NCBI GenBank assembly: GCA_905250055.1
Contig: CAJNOF010000392.1
Coordinates: 49,031 to 102,379 of the forward strand
Source of the DNA: Rotaria sp.
Lineage: Eukaryota
DNA: 53,349 nucleotides
Direction: 5' to 3'
Of the stretch, positions 39,221-52,535 are shown one piece after another (the stretch's first letter is position 1; the number at the start of each line of letters is the position of its first letter). The position numbers were made by a program, and so were the translations under genes. Below the pieces are notes generated by a model. The model ran no database searches, was not told the DNA's origin, and saw nothing but the letters and a program-made list of their open reading frames with translations.

Positions 39221-39295
39221 GGTGTAGGTGTGAGGTGTGGATGGATGTGGGTTTAGAGAAAGTTATCATCCATGCCCACACCCACATCCATTATT
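39221..39295. repeat. Telomeric-repeat palindrome (hairpin): a G-arm (ggtgtaggtgtgaggtgtggatggatgtggg), a spacer, then a C-arm (cccacacccacatccat).
   Basis: Direct reading gives (TGTGGG)-like units followed by their reverse complement. Confidence 0.7.
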
Positions 39296-39632
39296 TAAGA
39301 AAAGAACATAAGACGACACGTTGTTTTGTACGATCGCTTCCAAAAGAACGAAAAAGCAGGCCATTCAAACTTCGTTTTCTTTCAACTATCTTTTAGACAT
39401 GAAGGCTGTGTGTGAAAAACACACGTGCTAACACATCTCAAGCGAACGTTCTTAAAACACGACCCTATTTTCTTGCGAATTTTTGCCAAAATCTTAGGCA
39501 AGCTGTTGCTCGGTAAGATTTATTCATTTCGAGAGGTTCAATTCCAATTTCGTCACTAATATTCACTTCATTTATGAATTATTACGCAACAAATCATTCA
39601 AAATCGAAAGTATACTGTCACATTAACTAAGA

Positions 39633-39966
39633 CTAATTGTTCCAGCCTGGTTTTTCTTGGGCTTTCATACATCGATTGTTGCATCCACATGCGAGTCGAC
39701 AGCATTTTTCGTCCGAAGCACAGTGTCTGTCTCTCTTGCAGCAGTCAGGATCATTCGCACACATCTTGGCGGCCATGTCAGGCGAACAGACCATATGACA
39801 TATCATATGAGGGATCGGACAGTAGCCTAGAAAGATATAATTTCCATCATCTTTCGTAGTCTTGAGAAAACTCACCTGCATGCACCTCTGGCAATAGCCT
39901 CTTTTTAAGTGCCTGAGTGCCAGCAAAAAAGAGAATGAAAAGCAAGAAGAGAGAGAGAAAACGCAT
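39633..39966 (-). CDS. Secreted cysteine-rich peptide with WAP / four-disulfide-core-like Cys spacing. Two exons (39876-39966 and 39633-39826), with a 49-nt intron at 39827-39875.
   Basis: MRFLSLFLLFILFFAGTQA (signal peptide) is followed by LKKRLLPEVHAGYCPIPHMICHMVCSPDMAAKMCANDPDCCKRDRHCASDEKCCRLACGCNNRCMKAQEKPGWNN*. It has 12 Cys with CC...C...KCC...CGC...C spacing. The donor gtgagt and the acceptor tttctag are phase-consistent and anchored by ORFs 39847-40104 and 39633-39926. The exons are clearly GC-richer than the background. Confidence 0.6.
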
Positions 39967-40361
39967 TGTTAAAGTAATATAATTGTCTTTGGAGTATGAC
40001 AACAAGAATGAAAGAGGCTCGATAGATATACATACAGATATACATCTGTTCGTATTTCCCTTCATTGTTAGCACAATATCAAACGCTGTTTTTATCCAAC
40101 GCAATATGTTTTGCTTATTATCGTTCGTAAGTGAAAAGAAGAAAGGCGAGTGACTACGCCATTTTTCTTTCAGCGGGACGCATATAACGAATAAGTTAAT
40201 GTTTCTTTACTAAATCGAAAAATTCGATAATACTATATGGTTCATTGGTGGCGGATTAATTTGCAGATAGTTAGACGTGAATTAAATTATTTGTTGCTTC
40301 TCTTCTTCGACCTCAAGCAGAATCAAATCGTATATTGTTTATCTTGAATAGGAAAAAGAGG

Positions 40362-40565
40362 GTGTGAGTGTGGTCACCGATGAGTTGATGTGAATGGAGT
40401 CAGTGAAGAACCACACTCACACTCACACCCACCCATACTCCACACGCCTGCATCCACACGCACACCCTCAAGTACATATTGGATCATACATTCGAAACGG
40501 CTTGAAGTGGGGTGTGGATGGGTGTAACAGGATATTCATACCGACACCCACACCCACACCATCGT
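40362..40565. repeat. Two adjacent degenerate telomeric-repeat palindromes (gggtgtgagtgtgg...ccacactcacactcacacccaccc and gtggggtgtggatgggtg...cgacacccacacccacacc).
   Basis: Direct reading. ORF 40394-40600 (HTHTHTHP...) is a translation artefact of these repeats. Confidence 0.7.
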
Positions 40566-40984
40566 TGCTGAATAATATTGGAGCTACGATTGTTAGATAA
40601 AAGATAAATGCGGGTATTTTTTTTGACAATGCTGTACTCCACTTTATTTTGCTATTTTTATTCGACGCAAGGAGTTGCTTCCTATGTTATTGTGATTTAG
40701 GCAAAGGGTTCAGTTATATGGGAGAAATTCAATATTTAAATTTTAAGAGAAGGAAACCAATTCAAAGCATTGCTAACTTTTCTTTCTGTAGCATTTATTT
40801 TTATATCAGGCAAAGAGGGGAATAAAGACTGTGTGCATGCAAGTCATCATCAATTTGGTCTTCACAATGGTCATCCTTTGCGTTTCAGCCATAAAAAAAT
40901 GTGGCTTTCCTATTCACACAGACATTGCTGTAACACAACTTTGCTAAGTCATTGTTTACACCAAATTTATCTACTACATGCTTT

Positions 40985-41045
40985 ACTTCTGGGTGTGGAT
41001 GTGAGAGAATAAGCCTCACACCCCACACCCGCACCCTCCTCAGCA
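40985..41045. repeat. Telomeric-repeat palindrome (ctgggtgtggatgtgagag...cctcacaccccacacccgcaccc).
   Basis: Direct reading. Confidence 0.6.
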
Positions 41046-50589: not shown

Positions 50590-50665
50590 AATCATAACAG
50601 GCATCTACTAAAAGGGTGTGGATGTTTACAGACAAGGAAGCCCCCACATCACCACCCACATCCTC
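50590..50665. repeat. Short telomeric-repeat palindrome (aaagggtgtggatg...cccccacatcaccacccacatcctcagcatccatgg).
   Basis: Direct reading. Confidence 0.55.
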
Positions 50666-50805
50666 AGCATCCATGGTAGCTTGAGAAGCAGTCGAGGACT
50701 AGTCTTGGATCCACATGCAATTTTACCATCCAAAGAAGCTTCAAATACTCTCTTGATACCGATAAACGCTGCAGAAGTTGTTGTATTCTAGTCTCTGGTT
50801 TACAT

Positions 50806-51066
50806 GTGTGTTTGGGTGTGGGTGTGGGTTGGGTGAGGGTGTGGGTGTGGGTGTGGGTGGGGTGTGGGTGTGGGTGTCGGGTGGTGTGGGTGTGGGTGCG
50901 GGTATGTGGCTGTAGATCCTCTCTTCATTCCTTCCACACCCACACCCACACCCACACCCACACCCACATCCACACCCACACCCACACCCACCCCACACCC
51001 ACCCACACCCACACCCCACACCCACACCCACCTACACCCATACCCACACCCACCCACACCCTCAAA
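50806..51066. repeat. Large head-to-head telomeric-repeat palindrome. About 130 bp of (TGTGGG)n-like G-strand repeats is followed by a 20-bp spacer, then about 120 bp of (CCCACA)n C-strand repeats.
   Basis: gtgtgtttgggtgtgggtgtgggttgggtgagggtgtgggtgtgggtgtgggtggggtgtgggtgtgggtgtcgggtggtgtgggtgtgggtgcgggtatgtggctgtagatcctctcttcattccttccacacccacacccacacccacacccacacccacatccacacccacacccacacccaccccacacccacccacacccacaccccacacccacacccacctacacccatacccacacccacccacaccctcaaaccc. ORFs 50741-51135 and 50806-51175 are repeat-translation artefacts. Confidence 0.9.
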
Positions 51067-51184
51067 CCCGAACCCTTTCGATCCGAATGAAACAAAGAAA
51101 TGGCAACGATACTCGGATTTTGAAAATGAATACATCGAAGAATCGTTTCAACGAAAAGAGCACGAAGTACATTGAAGCGAGTAT

Positions 51185-52058
51185 ATGATCGACTTCAAGC
51201 ATAATGTTCAATACAAGGCAAACGATAAAGATAAACAAAGGCCAGTAAAACGTGGAGAGATTAGTGTGGATCAGTATGCGAGAGCAGAACGGTTTTCATA
51301 TCTGGAAAGAGCAGTTCGATCGTTCCACACTAGTGAAGGTTATTTTAGCCCTTTTATTGAACAGTGGAGAAATCGAAATCAAAGAATTTGTAATGCAGAT
51401 GAGCCAGACTGGTCGGCTATAGCAAAACAAGCTGCTGAAGGTAAAAATTACCAAATAAAATTTGCAACACTTTAAAGGATCGTCACATCTGTAAGTATTT
51501 TAAAAGAAGGTATTCTGCTCAATCAACAATTCGATGCTCAGCAAATGGTTGAACAACTGGAAAAATGGAGAGATTCGTGGGAGTTGCAAGCATGTGCTGC
51601 TCGCCTTTATGCTGCTGAATCATTTCTTTATAAATTGCTCAACTCAACACTAAGAAATAAAGTAATGAGTAAAGCCAATACATTGGGACCTTTCTGCTAC
51701 CTATTATGGATGTATTTACGCTTTGATGACGATATAGGGCGTTCAACACTTTATCGTGGTGCAGATCTTACAGCTGAGATGATTGAAGAGTACAAAAGAG
51801 CTGTCGGATCAGTAGTTATATTCCCGGCATTCACATTTACATCAAAAAAGCTAGATATGGCAGAAAAATTCGGTAATACTCTATTTATCATTAAACTTTT
51901 TTTATTTACCACATGCTCATGACATTTCATATCTGTCATACTATCCAGGTGAAGCAGAAGTGTTATTAAGCGCTAACTATCCTTTTGTGGTAAAGCAAAT
52001 GAAGACTCACCCTCAAAATAGTAGTCAATTGTTAATTTATTTGGAACAGCCTATGTAG
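51185..52058 (+). CDS. Mono-ADP-ribosyltransferase of the R-S-E (cholera-toxin / C3 / iota / VIP2-like) class, a toxin-type ART domain protein with no signal peptide. 3-exon model: 51185-51440, 51507-51872 and 51949-52058.
   Basis: The spliced product is MIDFKHNVQYKANDKDKQRPVKRGEISVDQYARAERFSYLERAVRSFHTSEGYFSPFIEQWRNRNQRICNADEPDWSAIAKQAAE/EGILLNQQFDAQQMVEQLEKWRDSWELQACAARLYAAESFLYKLLNSTLRNKVMSKANTLGPFCYLLWMYLRFDDDIGRSTLYRGADLTAEMIEEYKRAVGSVVIFPAFTFTSKKLDMAEKFG/EAEVLLSANYPFVVKQMKTHPQNSSQLLIYLEQPM*. The motifs appear in canonical order: Y-x-x-L-N-x-x-L-R (alpha-3 NAD helix: FLYKLLNSTLR), then about 38 aa to the catalytic Arg (TLYRG), then FTFTS (STS-like), then G-E-A-E-V-L-L (the ExE ARTT motif followed by LL, as in actin-targeting ARTs). 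Introns: 51441-51506 (66 nt) and 51873-51948 (76 nt), GT..AG and phase-consistent, anchored by ORFs 51185 and 51545. Caveat: the STS-to-ExE spacing is only about 13 aa (about 35-45 is usual), so the PN-loop region may be deleted or the STS assignment may be wrong. Confidence 0.6.
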
Positions 52059-52449
52059 CCTCAAAAGGTCGGTAACGTACATCTAGTGACCTTCTCTGTT
52101 TTACATGAATTACAAAAATACGGTTAATAAAATTAGTGTAAAACGACAAAGATGAGTTCGAGTATGTCTTTGAATTAAACTAGTTATACTTTTACCATGT
52201 TGAAAAATGTGCTGAGTAATCAAAGCCTCTATAGGCGCTTAGAGAAACTCATACAAGATTAACACATTGACGACGACGCCCATAAATTTACAGTTTCGAA
52301 ATTTTTCTAGAAAAAAAAGTTATAAAGTGCACTAAAAAAGAGTTTTTTCATGTTTTGTATTCAAACATACGTGTTGCTAGCAATAGCTTTATGCACTGGA
52401 GTTCTATGCCATATATATCGATATGTAGTTCGTTATCCTTAAGTGAGAT

Positions 52450-52535
52450 ACTGGGTGTGGGTGTGGGTGTGAGTGTAGTGGATGTGAGTGTGGGCTGTGG
52501 GTGCGAGCATGGAAGAAACACCTACACCCACACCC
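52450..52535. repeat. Telomeric-repeat palindrome downstream of the ART gene (gggtgtgggtgtgggtgtgagtgtagtggatgtgagtgtgggctgtgggtgcgag...cacctacacccacaccc).
   Basis: Direct reading. ORFs 52355-52594 and 52439-52696 are artefacts of it. Confidence 0.7.

What the first reader, a model, noticed from the sequence alone, without database searches (positions are those of the whole stretch)
39221..52535. Dispersed family of head-to-head telomeric-repeat palindromes, (TGTGGG)n spacer (CCCACA)n, bracketing foreign-like genes
At least eight instances lie in 14 kb, and more degenerate ones at 905-1110, 2405-2470 and 24940-25035. In every instance the G-rich strand comes first and its reverse complement second, so each can fold into a hairpin with a G-strand 5' arm. 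Lengths range from about 60 bp to about 260 bp. A single such structure would be read as an ancestral telomere-telomere fusion. A dispersed family with a fixed G-then-C polarity, repeatedly flanking GC-richer intron-poor genes (the WAP-like peptide, the GT25-like transferase, the ART gene), is different. It suggests a recurrent process: repeated breakage, telomere healing and fusion cycles in a subtelomere-like region, hairpin-capped break intermediates, or a mobile or recombination module that uses telomeric repeats as its terminal structure. Such a telomere-repeat-delimited gene cassette organisation would be mechanistically novel.
Basis: seen in the sequence. Interest (0 to 1): 0.8.

Follow-up and report, generated by a model that had tools for sequence, protein, structure and literature searches.

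The report
Telomere-healed break junctions in a rotifer
The head-to-head telomere-repeat "palindromes" are real; they are best read as scars left where two broken DNA ends of a bdelloid rotifer chromosome were each capped with telomere repeats and then joined, so the region is a patchwork of re-joined fragments rather than a new mobile gene cassette.

Summary
Eight (TGTGGG)n–spacer–(CCCACA)n units lie between 39.2 and 52.5 kb. All are G-then-C.

TGTGGG is the bdelloid rotifer telomere repeat, and every protein hit is bdelloid. The pattern is general: in 242 kb from several bdelloid species I counted 25 G→C pairs and 2 C→G pairs. Both C→G cases are only gaps between neighbouring units.

- **Not one mobile family.** The units share no flanks, have no target-site duplications, no hammerhead ribozyme and no RT ORF. 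The two arms are not mirror copies.
- **They sit at homology breakpoints.** The ART/WWE gene is a pseudogene that starts at codon 20, directly against a C arm. A Rotaria sordida homologue and an Adineta steineri haplotype each lose homology at the first base of a G arm.
- **The polarity is geometric.** Two 3'-extended ends can only join G→C.

Best reading: repeated break, telomerase healing and end joining.

A conserved spacer motif, TTAAGAGAA(G/T)A, and a preferred outer junction, TTGA|GGGTGTG, suggest read-through into the telomerase RNA. That step is unproven. Rare vertebrate TERC-ITS loci with head-to-head repeats are the closest precedent.

I rate this a new variant of a known kind, of moderate interest.

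The parts
39219..39291 (.). Junction 1. G arm 39219-39252, spacer 39253-39269 (TTAGAGAAAGTTATCA, carries the spacer motif), C arm 39270-39291. This is the first junction distal to the block syntenic with Rotaria socialis.
   Evidence: synteny with L153 ends at 37247
40358..40470 (.). Junction 2. G arm 40358-40374 starts GA|GGGTGTG, spacer 40375-40410, C arm 40411-40470 ends CACACCC|TCAAG.
40509..40563 (.). Junction 3, only 38 bp from junction 2. G arm 40509-40525, spacer 40526-40541, C arm 40542-40563.
40987..41038 (.). Junction 4. G arm 40990-41005, spacer AGAATAAGCC (motif), C arm 41017-41038. It has the best hairpin potential of the short units (z -4.9).
43802..43862 (.). Junction 5 (called hp8 in the notes). 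G arm 43802-43832, spacer 43833-43847, degenerate C arm 43848-43862. It bounds the 6.75-kb block that is homologous to R. sordida L008.
43863..50612 (-). Segment between junctions. It carries a bdelloid-specific gene (exons about 44834-45232 and 47108-47719) and conserved flanking DNA. It is 72-90% identical to R. sordida contig CAJOAX010003069.1 (L008 4603-10830). In L008 the block is also bounded by G-then-C junctions, and one of them sits at a different position.
50613..50666 (.). Junction 6. G arm 50614-50626, spacer 50627-50642, C arm 50643-50666.
50805..51065 (.). Junction 7, the largest. G arm about 102 nt (50805-50906), spacer 50907-50930, C arm about 131 nt (50931-51061). The arms are not mirror copies: best register 76% identity, similar in many registers.
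51062..52049 (+). WWE + ART (ADP-ribosyltransferase) pseudogene. Homology to intact bdelloid paralogues starts at codon 20, immediately after the C arm. In-frame stops at 51173-51175 and about 51473, and a frameshift near 51900.
52450..52538 (.). Junction 8. G arm 52452-52507, spacer 52508-52523, C arm 52524-52538.
39633..39960 (-). It has no Pfam match.

Best explanation
Each unit is the scar of two DNA ends that were each extended at the 3' end with telomeric repeats and then ligated to one another. The enzyme was presumably telomerase. Extension always makes the G strand run 5'->3' towards the end, so any join of two such ends reads (TGTGGG)n ... (CCCACA)n on both strands. The fixed polarity is therefore geometric, not a property of a mobile element. 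The 14 kb distal to about 39.2 kb is a mosaic of at least nine segments (38 bp to 6.75 kb), some carrying whole genes and one a decapitated gene. It was built by repeated rounds of breakage, healing and end joining in a poorly constrained, subtelomere-like part of a bdelloid rotifer chromosome. What is shown: the anatomy, the polarity across species, the position at homology breakpoints, the truncated gene, and the absence of transposon hallmarks. What is inferred: that the enzyme is telomerase, that the joined ends came from different breaks or chromosome ends (telomere-fusion or misjoining type) rather than from one break, and that the spacer is a run-on copy of the RNA just 5' of the telomerase template. 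That last step is the weakest; I put it at about one in three.
For: TGTGGG is the bdelloid telomere repeat (papers PMC7943196 and PMC8494291). All protein homologues are bdelloid or unnamed metagenomic sequences. Polarity: 8 of 8 in the window. In 242 kb from 11 non-redundant bdelloid loci there are 25 G->C pairs and 2 C->G pairs, and both C->G cases are inter-unit gaps (binomial p about 6e-6). 40 of 52 runs of at least 16 nt in 264 kb (12 loci) are in automatically detected G->C pairs, and at least five of the rest have a degenerate partner arm on the expected side. Control: 114 non-bdelloid metagenome loci with the same repeat give GG 168, CC 179, GC 24 and CG 16, so the detector is not biased. 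Breakpoints: ART homology starts at codon 20 directly after the C arm. R. sordida L008 loses homology with the window at the first base of its G arm. A. steineri haplotypes L139 and L140 are 99.5% identical up to the first base of the L140 G arm, then differ; the break lies inside what the repeated BLAST hits suggest is a roughly 438-bp tandem repeat that continues in L139. The same junctions recur in 9 independent R. socialis assemblies and 4 A. steineri assemblies, which argues against assembly artefact. No shared flanks or spacers. No target-site duplications (observed mean 2.2 against 3.7 in controls). The arms are not mirror images. Enzymatic signature: arms start in a fixed register, and GA precedes the first GGG in 11 of 44 arms against 6% background, often as TTGA|GGGTGTG. 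A spacer motif TTAAGAGAA(G/T)A lies next to one G arm (9 of 27 against a maximum of 8 in 300 control sets at width 9). Precedents: neotelomeres at break points in A. vaga (PMC13564844); head-to-head telomeric repeats at repaired breaks, attributed to a second telomerase acting on the other end (PMC8537989).
Against: Nothing here shows directly that the two flanks of any junction came from different chromosome ends. Only three junctions had a comparator, and each comparison is between diverged or structurally complex sequences. A conserved, non-telomeric spacer is present in every unit and never absent, which simple ligation of two telomeres does not predict; it needs the extra read-through assumption. 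Inter-junction segments of 38 and 138 bp are awkward for a fusion-then-breakage cycle. The bdelloid telomerase RNA is not known in the literature I could search, so the read-through step cannot be checked. For the window itself there are no reads to rule out misassembly at palindromes.
Confidence: 0.7

Rival explanations
1. One-step insertion at a single two-ended break, of the TERC-ITS type. Telomerase extends both ends of one double-strand break, one extension runs on into the telomerase RNA, and the same two ends are re-ligated. Each unit would then be a pure insertion into collinear DNA.
For: Exactly this is proposed for 3 of 41 vertebrate TERC-ITS loci that have head-to-head repeats (PMC8537989). 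The conserved spacer motif next to one arm and the short arms (12-36 nt) in most units fit a brief, local event.
Against: At the three junctions with a comparator, homology is lost at the junction and does not resume within the sequence available. These are the ART 5' truncation, L008 against the window and L139 against L140. It may still hold for junctions without a comparator.
Confidence: 0.15
2. A mobile or recombination module (foldback element, MITE or cassette) whose terminal inverted repeats are telomere-like and which carries genes between its ends.
For: Inverted-repeat anatomy; units bracket genes; the 6.75-kb block is bounded by units in both the window and R. sordida.
Against: No shared internal or flanking sequence. 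No target-site duplications. Arm lengths vary from 12 to 135 nt. The block boundary differs by about 750 bp between the window and L008. One 'cargo' is a decapitated pseudogene. There is no transposase or RT ORF in 41-53 kb.
Confidence: 0.04
3. Extremely 5'-truncated Athena/Terminon (endonuclease-deficient Penelope-like) retroelement ends, which carry (ACACCC)n at their 3' end and attach to telomeric overhangs.
For: These elements are abundant at bdelloid telomeres, carry reverse-complement telomeric repeats, and are capped by telomeric repeats when truncated (PMC6431247 and PMC3846280). The spacer motif could in principle be an element 3' end.
Against: Attachment plus capping yields telomeric repeats in the same orientation on both sides, not head-to-head; this follows from the published mechanism. 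No hammerhead ribozyme was found at E<=10. No RT ORF was found. Homology between spacers never extends beyond about 13-15 nt.
Confidence: 0.05
4. Fold-back or hairpin-capped break intermediates. A healed end snaps back or is hairpin-capped and is then replicated into a palindrome.
For: Inverted-repeat anatomy; some units fold significantly better than shuffles.
Against: The arms are unequal and not mirror copies: the best register is about 76% identical, no better than many others. The flanks are not inverted duplicates of each other. Three of seven units do not fold better than shuffles.
Confidence: 0.03
5. Chance decay of ordinary interstitial telomeric sequence, or assembly artefact.
For: Palindromes are a known assembly hazard, and the window has no read support available.
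Against: 0 of 100 shuffles give any match. There is a strong polarity bias that is absent in a non-bdelloid control. The same junctions appear in many independent assemblies of other species. Most arms are short enough that a whole junction, spacer included, would lie within a single sequencing read (my inference, not tested).
Confidence: 0.03

Closest known systems
TERC-ITS loci with head-to-head telomeric repeats (mouse lemur, Xenopus laevis; Sola et al. 2021, PMC8537989; Nergadze et al. 2007, PMC2246262)
   Same: Two telomeric stretches in head-to-head orientation at a repaired double-strand break, with a short non-telomeric piece between or beside them that is copied from the telomerase RNA. 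They are explained by telomerase acting on both ends.
   Different: In vertebrates this is rare (3 of 41 TERC-ITS loci) and is a one-step insertion into collinear DNA, shown by empty orthologous loci. Here it is the dominant form of interstitial telomeric sequence, it is clustered (8 in 14 kb), and where testable it coincides with loss of homology. Derivation of the spacer from telomerase RNA is only inferred.
Fusion-type interstitial telomeric sequence (human 2q13 head-to-head array; cited in PMC7215372)
   Same: Head-to-head G-then-C arrays marking the junction of two former chromosome ends.
   Different: That is a single ancient event between two full chromosomes with arrays abutting (my recollection of the 2q13 locus). 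Here there are many small events, very short arms, a constant 8-40 nt spacer, and segments as short as 38 bp between junctions.
Bdelloid subtelomeres: short telomeric-repeat stretches among transposons, gene families and foreign genes; Athena/Terminon capping; neotelomeres at breakpoints (PMC2861651, PMC6431247, PMC13564844; Gladyshev & Arkhipova 2007 and Gladyshev et al. 2008 could not be read)
   Same: Same organisms, same repeat, same kind of region. Healing of truncated ends by telomeric repeat addition is already documented.
   Different: The texts I could read speak of 'short stretches of telomeric repeats' or count hexamers without regard to orientation. None states that they come almost exclusively as G-then-C pairs with a conserved spacer. 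I could not check the two original papers, so prior description cannot be excluded.
Neotelomeres and telomere-spanning chromosome-arm fusions in cancer genomes (PMC11293586, abstract only)
   Same: Telomere addition at breaks and fusions that retain telomeric repeats at the junction.
   Different: Those events are somatic, in tumour genomes. Here they are germ-line, fixed, and recurrent over evolutionary time.

Membership tests
Fusion-type head-to-head interstitial telomeric sequence | Two telomeric arrays in G-then-C (head-to-head) orientation | tested here: met
   8 of 8 in the window; 25 against 2 (both spurious) in 242 kb of bdelloid DNA
Fusion-type head-to-head interstitial telomeric sequence | The two flanks derive from different ends, i.e. 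are not collinear in a comparator | tested here: met
   Homology is lost at the junction in all three testable cases. The sample is small and the comparators are diverged.
Fusion-type head-to-head interstitial telomeric sequence | Arrays abut directly or with only degenerate telomeric sequence between them | tested here: not met
   Every unit has an 8-40 nt non-telomeric spacer, often with a shared motif
TERC-ITS (telomerase-RNA-templated insertion at a double-strand break) | A fragment retrotranscribed from the telomerase RNA lies beside the repeats | not testable with these tools
   A conserved motif TTAAGAGAA(G/T)A follows ...GGGT of one arm. No bdelloid telomerase RNA sequence was available to compare with it.
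TERC-ITS (telomerase-RNA-templated insertion at a double-strand break) | One-step insertion: an empty orthologous locus with adjacent flanks | tested here: not met
   No junction with a comparator shows the flanks resuming collinearity
Athena/Terminon (endonuclease-deficient Penelope-like element) termini | Hammerhead ribozyme motif immediately upstream of (ACACCC)n | tested here: not met
   No hammerhead family at E<=10 in 38.5-53.3 kb, and none at gathering score in the whole window
Athena/Terminon (endonuclease-deficient Penelope-like element) termini | Athena-type reverse transcriptase ORF, and same-orientation telomeric cap on the truncated 5' end | tested here: not met
   Pfam found only ART and WWE in ORFs of 41-53 kb. 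The repeats are in opposite, not the same, orientation.
TIR transposon / MITE / foldback element | Target-site duplication, and family-wide conserved termini or internal sequence | tested here: not met
   Direct repeats at the boundaries are below the random control. No conserved flank or spacer alignment. Arm lengths range from 12 to 135 nt.
Fold-back / hairpin-derived palindrome | Mirror-symmetric arms and inverted-duplicate flanks | tested here: not met
   Best arm register is about 76% identical, not unique. The flanks are unrelated.

The most novel reading that the evidence does not exclude
Bdelloid rotifers may routinely patch broken germ-line DNA by a telomerase-primed end-joining route. 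Telomerase would extend both ends, starting preferentially on ...TTGA. One extension would overrun the template boundary and copy about 13 nt of telomerase RNA, leaving the spacer motif. The two tails would then be joined, often between ends from different breaks or stray DNA fragments. The G-then-C junctions would then be a genome-wide fossil record of break repair and of how new, possibly foreign, DNA is stitched into subtelomeres. The junction consensus would also give the first sequence handle on the unknown bdelloid telomerase RNA, predicted core 5'-UUAUCUUCUCUUA|ACCCACACCC|UCAA-3'.
Probability: 0.25. Interest if true: 0.8.

Novelty: new variant of a known kind. Interest (0 to 1): 0.55.

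Why it matters
Bdelloid rotifers survive massive DNA breakage and carry unusually many acquired genes near their chromosome ends, yet how broken or incoming DNA gets fixed into the chromosome is still debated. If interstitial telomeric repeats in these genomes are almost always head-to-head junctions at rearrangement breakpoints, they are a cheap, orientation-aware marker. A simple scan could map past break-and-join events, date them, and ask whether acquired genes sit inside such segments more often than native ones. The regular junction and spacer sequences also offer a concrete, testable prediction for the telomerase RNA template region of a phylum where I found none described.

Tried and rejected
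- **Metagenome scan for (TGTGGG)3.** I hoped for a broad bdelloid sample. Nearly all 120 loci came from other organisms (GC 0.42-0.73), so I used them only as a polarity control.
- **Orthologue of the last conserved gene before junction 1.** It gave only 48-79% identical paralogues. One R. socialis locus (L153) is syntenic up to window 37247 and then unrelated, with no junctions in its next 10 kb. This shows a synteny end but not an empty site.
- **Hammerhead ribozymes and other RNA families.** I found only sub-threshold miRNA-like hits, caused by the hairpin shape.
- **Predicted telomerase-RNA core in viral and prokaryotic collections, the window and the loci.** Nothing turned up apart from the A. 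steineri junction the core was derived from.
- **Original bdelloid telomere papers.** Gladyshev & Arkhipova 2007, Gladyshev et al. 2008 and Arkhipova et al. 2017 are not held. I could not check whether the head-to-head arrangement was noted there.
- **Pfam support for the 'WAP-like' and 'GT25-like' labels.** There is none.
- **Window junction 6 against L008 4341-4402.** Both lie about 200 bp from the end of detectable homology. The alignment is too weak to say whether they are orthologous.
- **A. steineri L139 against L140 downstream of the break.** The structures are too rearranged to reconstruct the event fully.

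
Full report
**What is in the sequence**

The window is AT-rich, about 30% GC. Between 39.2 and 52.5 kb it holds eight units of the form G-rich telomere-like tract, short spacer, C-rich tract:

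- 39219-39291
- 40358-40470
- 40509-40563
- 40987-41038
- 43802-43862 (degenerate C arm)
- 50613-50666
- 50805-51065
- 52450-52538

The units are 52-261 bp long and the spacers are 8-40 nt. (TGTGGG)3 with up to two mismatches matches 22 times, against none in 100 shuffles. Every unit is G-then-C. Because such a unit reads the same way on both strands, G-then-C against C-then-G is a real topological difference and not a matter of strand choice.

By my criterion they are no stronger than what shuffled sequence gives, so I leave them open.

Hairpin potential is uneven. Four units fold clearly better than shuffles and three do not.

**Whose DNA it is**

TGTGGG is the telomeric repeat of bdelloid rotifers (PMC7943196 and PMC8494291).

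- The ART/WWE ORFs hit only Adineta, Rotaria and Didymodactylos proteins and unnamed metagenomic ones.
- The gene at 44.8-47.7 kb hits only Rotaria or Didymodactylos and metagenomic proteins.
- Window 26.9-37.25 kb is syntenic with a Rotaria socialis contig at 70-85% identity.
- Window 44.6-50.4 kb is syntenic with a Rotaria sordida contig at 72-90% identity.

The window therefore comes from a Rotaria-like bdelloid. Its left 37 kb carries ordinary animal genes, including a VIT/vWA PARP4-like gene and a TM2-domain gene. Synteny with R. socialis stops at 37247, and the junction-rich stretch begins 2 kb later.

**The pattern is general**

I fetched loci around bdelloid homologues from A. vaga, A. 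steineri, A. ricciae, R. sordida, R. socialis, Rotaria sp. Silwood1 and D. carnosus.

- In 242 kb of non-redundant sequence there are 25 G-then-C pairs within 60 nt and 2 C-then-G pairs. Both of the latter are simply the gap between two neighbouring units (p about 6e-6).
- Adding the junction-free R. socialis locus L153 gives 264 kb. There, 40 of 52 telomere-like runs of at least 16 nt are in automatically detected G-then-C pairs. At least five of the 12 others have a degenerate partner arm on the expected side.
- As a control, 114 non-bdelloid metagenome contigs carrying the same hexamer give mostly same-orientation neighbours: GG 168, CC 179, with GC 24 and CG 16. My detection is therefore not biased towards G-then-C.
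- The same junction is present in nine independent R. socialis assemblies and another in four A. steineri assemblies. This argues against an assembly artefact as a general explanation.

**What the units are not**

- They share no flanking or internal sequence when aligned.
- Direct repeats at their boundaries are, if anything, shorter than at random positions. They are therefore not a transposon family.
- No hammerhead ribozyme is found and there is no reverse transcriptase ORF in 41-53 kb.
- The published way in which Athena/Terminon elements attach to telomeres and are capped gives repeats in the same orientation on both sides, not facing each other.
- In the three long units the arms are not mirror images. 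The best register is about 76% identical and no better than many other registers. The flanks are unrelated. A fold-back or hairpin-capped origin is therefore excluded for those.

**Where the units sit**

Three junctions could be compared with related sequence, and all three coincide with an end of homology.

1. The ART/WWE copy aligns with intact paralogues from codon 20 onward, starting at 51062, the base after the C arm. The paralogues have 57 more coding bases there. The copy also has two in-frame stops and a frameshift. It is a decapitated pseudogene.
2. The R. sordida homologue of the 6.75-kb block is collinear with the window up to the first base of its own G arm (L008 10833). After that it is unrelated, while the window continues about 750 bp further to its own junction.
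3. Two A. steineri haplotypes are 99.5% identical for 12.6 kb. One (L140) then goes straight into a G arm. The break lies inside what the repeated BLAST hits suggest is a roughly 438-bp tandem repeat, which continues in the other haplotype (L139). This looks like a recent truncation followed by healing and joining to other DNA.

**Mechanism**

Telomerase extends 3' ends, so a healed end always has the G strand running towards the end.

Healing of broken ends by telomeric repeats is already reported in A. vaga (PMC13564844). Short telomeric stretches are a recognised feature of bdelloid subtelomeric DNA (PMC2861651).

The region is best seen as a mosaic of at least nine segments joined by repeated break, heal and join events. 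These may have been telomere-to-telomere fusion followed by new breakage, or misjoining of healed ends after multiple breaks. I cannot tell those two apart.

**Two regularities that go beyond a simple fusion**

First, arms begin in a fixed register. GA precedes the first GGG in 11 of 44 arms against 6% background, often as TTGA|GGGTGTG. At the ART junction the TTGA belongs to the gene. In A. steineri only TT does, and GA was added.

Second, the spacers are not random. A motif TTAAGAGAA(G/T)A follows ...GGGT of one arm, in either orientation, in Adineta and Rotaria alike. At width 9, 9 of 27 spacers share it, against a maximum of 8 in 300 control sets. Widths 8 and 10 give p of about 0.02.

Both regularities would follow if the template region of the telomerase RNA reads 5'-...UUAUCUUCUCUUA|ACCCACACCC|UCAA-3' and synthesis sometimes overruns the template boundary. 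This is inference only. I found no bdelloid telomerase RNA in the literature I could search, and searches for the predicted core found nothing informative.

**Comparison with what is known**

[quoted passage not shown] Three of 41 such loci have head-to-head repeats, which the authors attribute to a second telomerase acting on the other end (PMC8537989).

The bdelloid units resemble these in anatomy and differ in three ways. They are the dominant form rather than a rarity. They are clustered. Where tested, they mark loss of collinearity rather than a clean insertion.

They also resemble the fusion-type array of human 2q13 (mentioned in PMC7215372), but they have a constant spacer and very short arms.

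The bdelloid papers I could read count telomeric hexamers without regard to orientation. I could not read the original 2007 and 2008 papers, so I cannot exclude that the arrangement was noticed before.

**Verdict**

The 'breakage, healing and fusion' reading is supported. The 'mobile telomere-delimited gene cassette' and 'foreign gene' readings are not.

I rate it a new variant of a known kind. It is interesting mainly as an orientation-aware marker of past break repair in an animal famous for surviving DNA shattering, and as a lead to its telomerase RNA.

Noticed in passing
window 37820-38593: Foldback-like element just distal to the end of synteny with R. socialis. Arrays of a roughly 21-nt unit (GGTCAGTAAAAAGATGAAAT) at 37820-37927 face their reverse complement at 38486-38593. 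An inner 54-nt inverted repeat lies at 38030-38083 / 38375-38428 (94% complementary).
   Followed up: no
window 37247 / L153 11999: Synteny with Rotaria socialis contig CAJNYV010005500.1 (window 26.9-37.25 kb, 70-85% identity) stops here. The R. socialis contig continues with a lipocalin gene and has no telomeric junctions in its next 10 kb.
   Followed up: partly
window 52600-52669; L139-L144 about 11717-11786 (or 11040-11109): A 70-bp stretch just after junction 8 is 77% identical to a stretch about 660 bp downstream of an ART gene in six A. steineri assemblies. It could be a conserved element or a transposon fragment associated with ART genes.
   Followed up: no
window 43252-43634: Cluster of direct and inverted copies of an AAACGCG-rich unit (about 180-bp period; inverted arms 43401-43454 / 43469-43522 and others), 170 bp before junction 5. 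It looks like a satellite or MITE.
   Followed up: no
window 49740-49850 / 50064-50174; L008 about 5006-5534: A 111-nt inverted repeat (75% complementary, 213 nt apart) inside the block shared with R. sordida. L008 matches it in both orientations, so the structure is conserved between the two sequences.
   Followed up: no
window 7962-8351 and 12065-12434: Two further long inverted repeats in the gene-rich left part: 178-nt arms (83% complementary, 34 nt apart) and 71-nt arms (87%, 228 nt apart). They are probably small foldback or MITE insertions in introns or intergenic DNA.
   Followed up: no
L010-L129 (metagenome contigs, many from samples Ga0307942-Ga0307974): An unidentified organism or organisms with about 47-50% GC carries very dense TGTGGG-like tracts, mostly in same-orientation series (GG or CC neighbours). 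This is quite unlike the bdelloid pattern.
   Followed up: no
L001 (A. vaga CP075492.1, 2.92-2.94 Mb) 10001-13304: In A. vaga an intact WWE-ART gene is followed by two to three G-then-C junctions (11574-11625, 11948-11992, and a possible G arm at 12086) and then a WAP-domain gene. The called ART gene model runs across the first junction, so some annotated gene models may absorb these junctions as introns or UTR.
   Followed up: partly
window 23948-24012: A weak G-rich tract (TTATCGGTGGGGCTTTGGTATCG), 19 nt, then a C-rich tract (AGATCAACACCCATACCCTAAGC).
   Followed up: no
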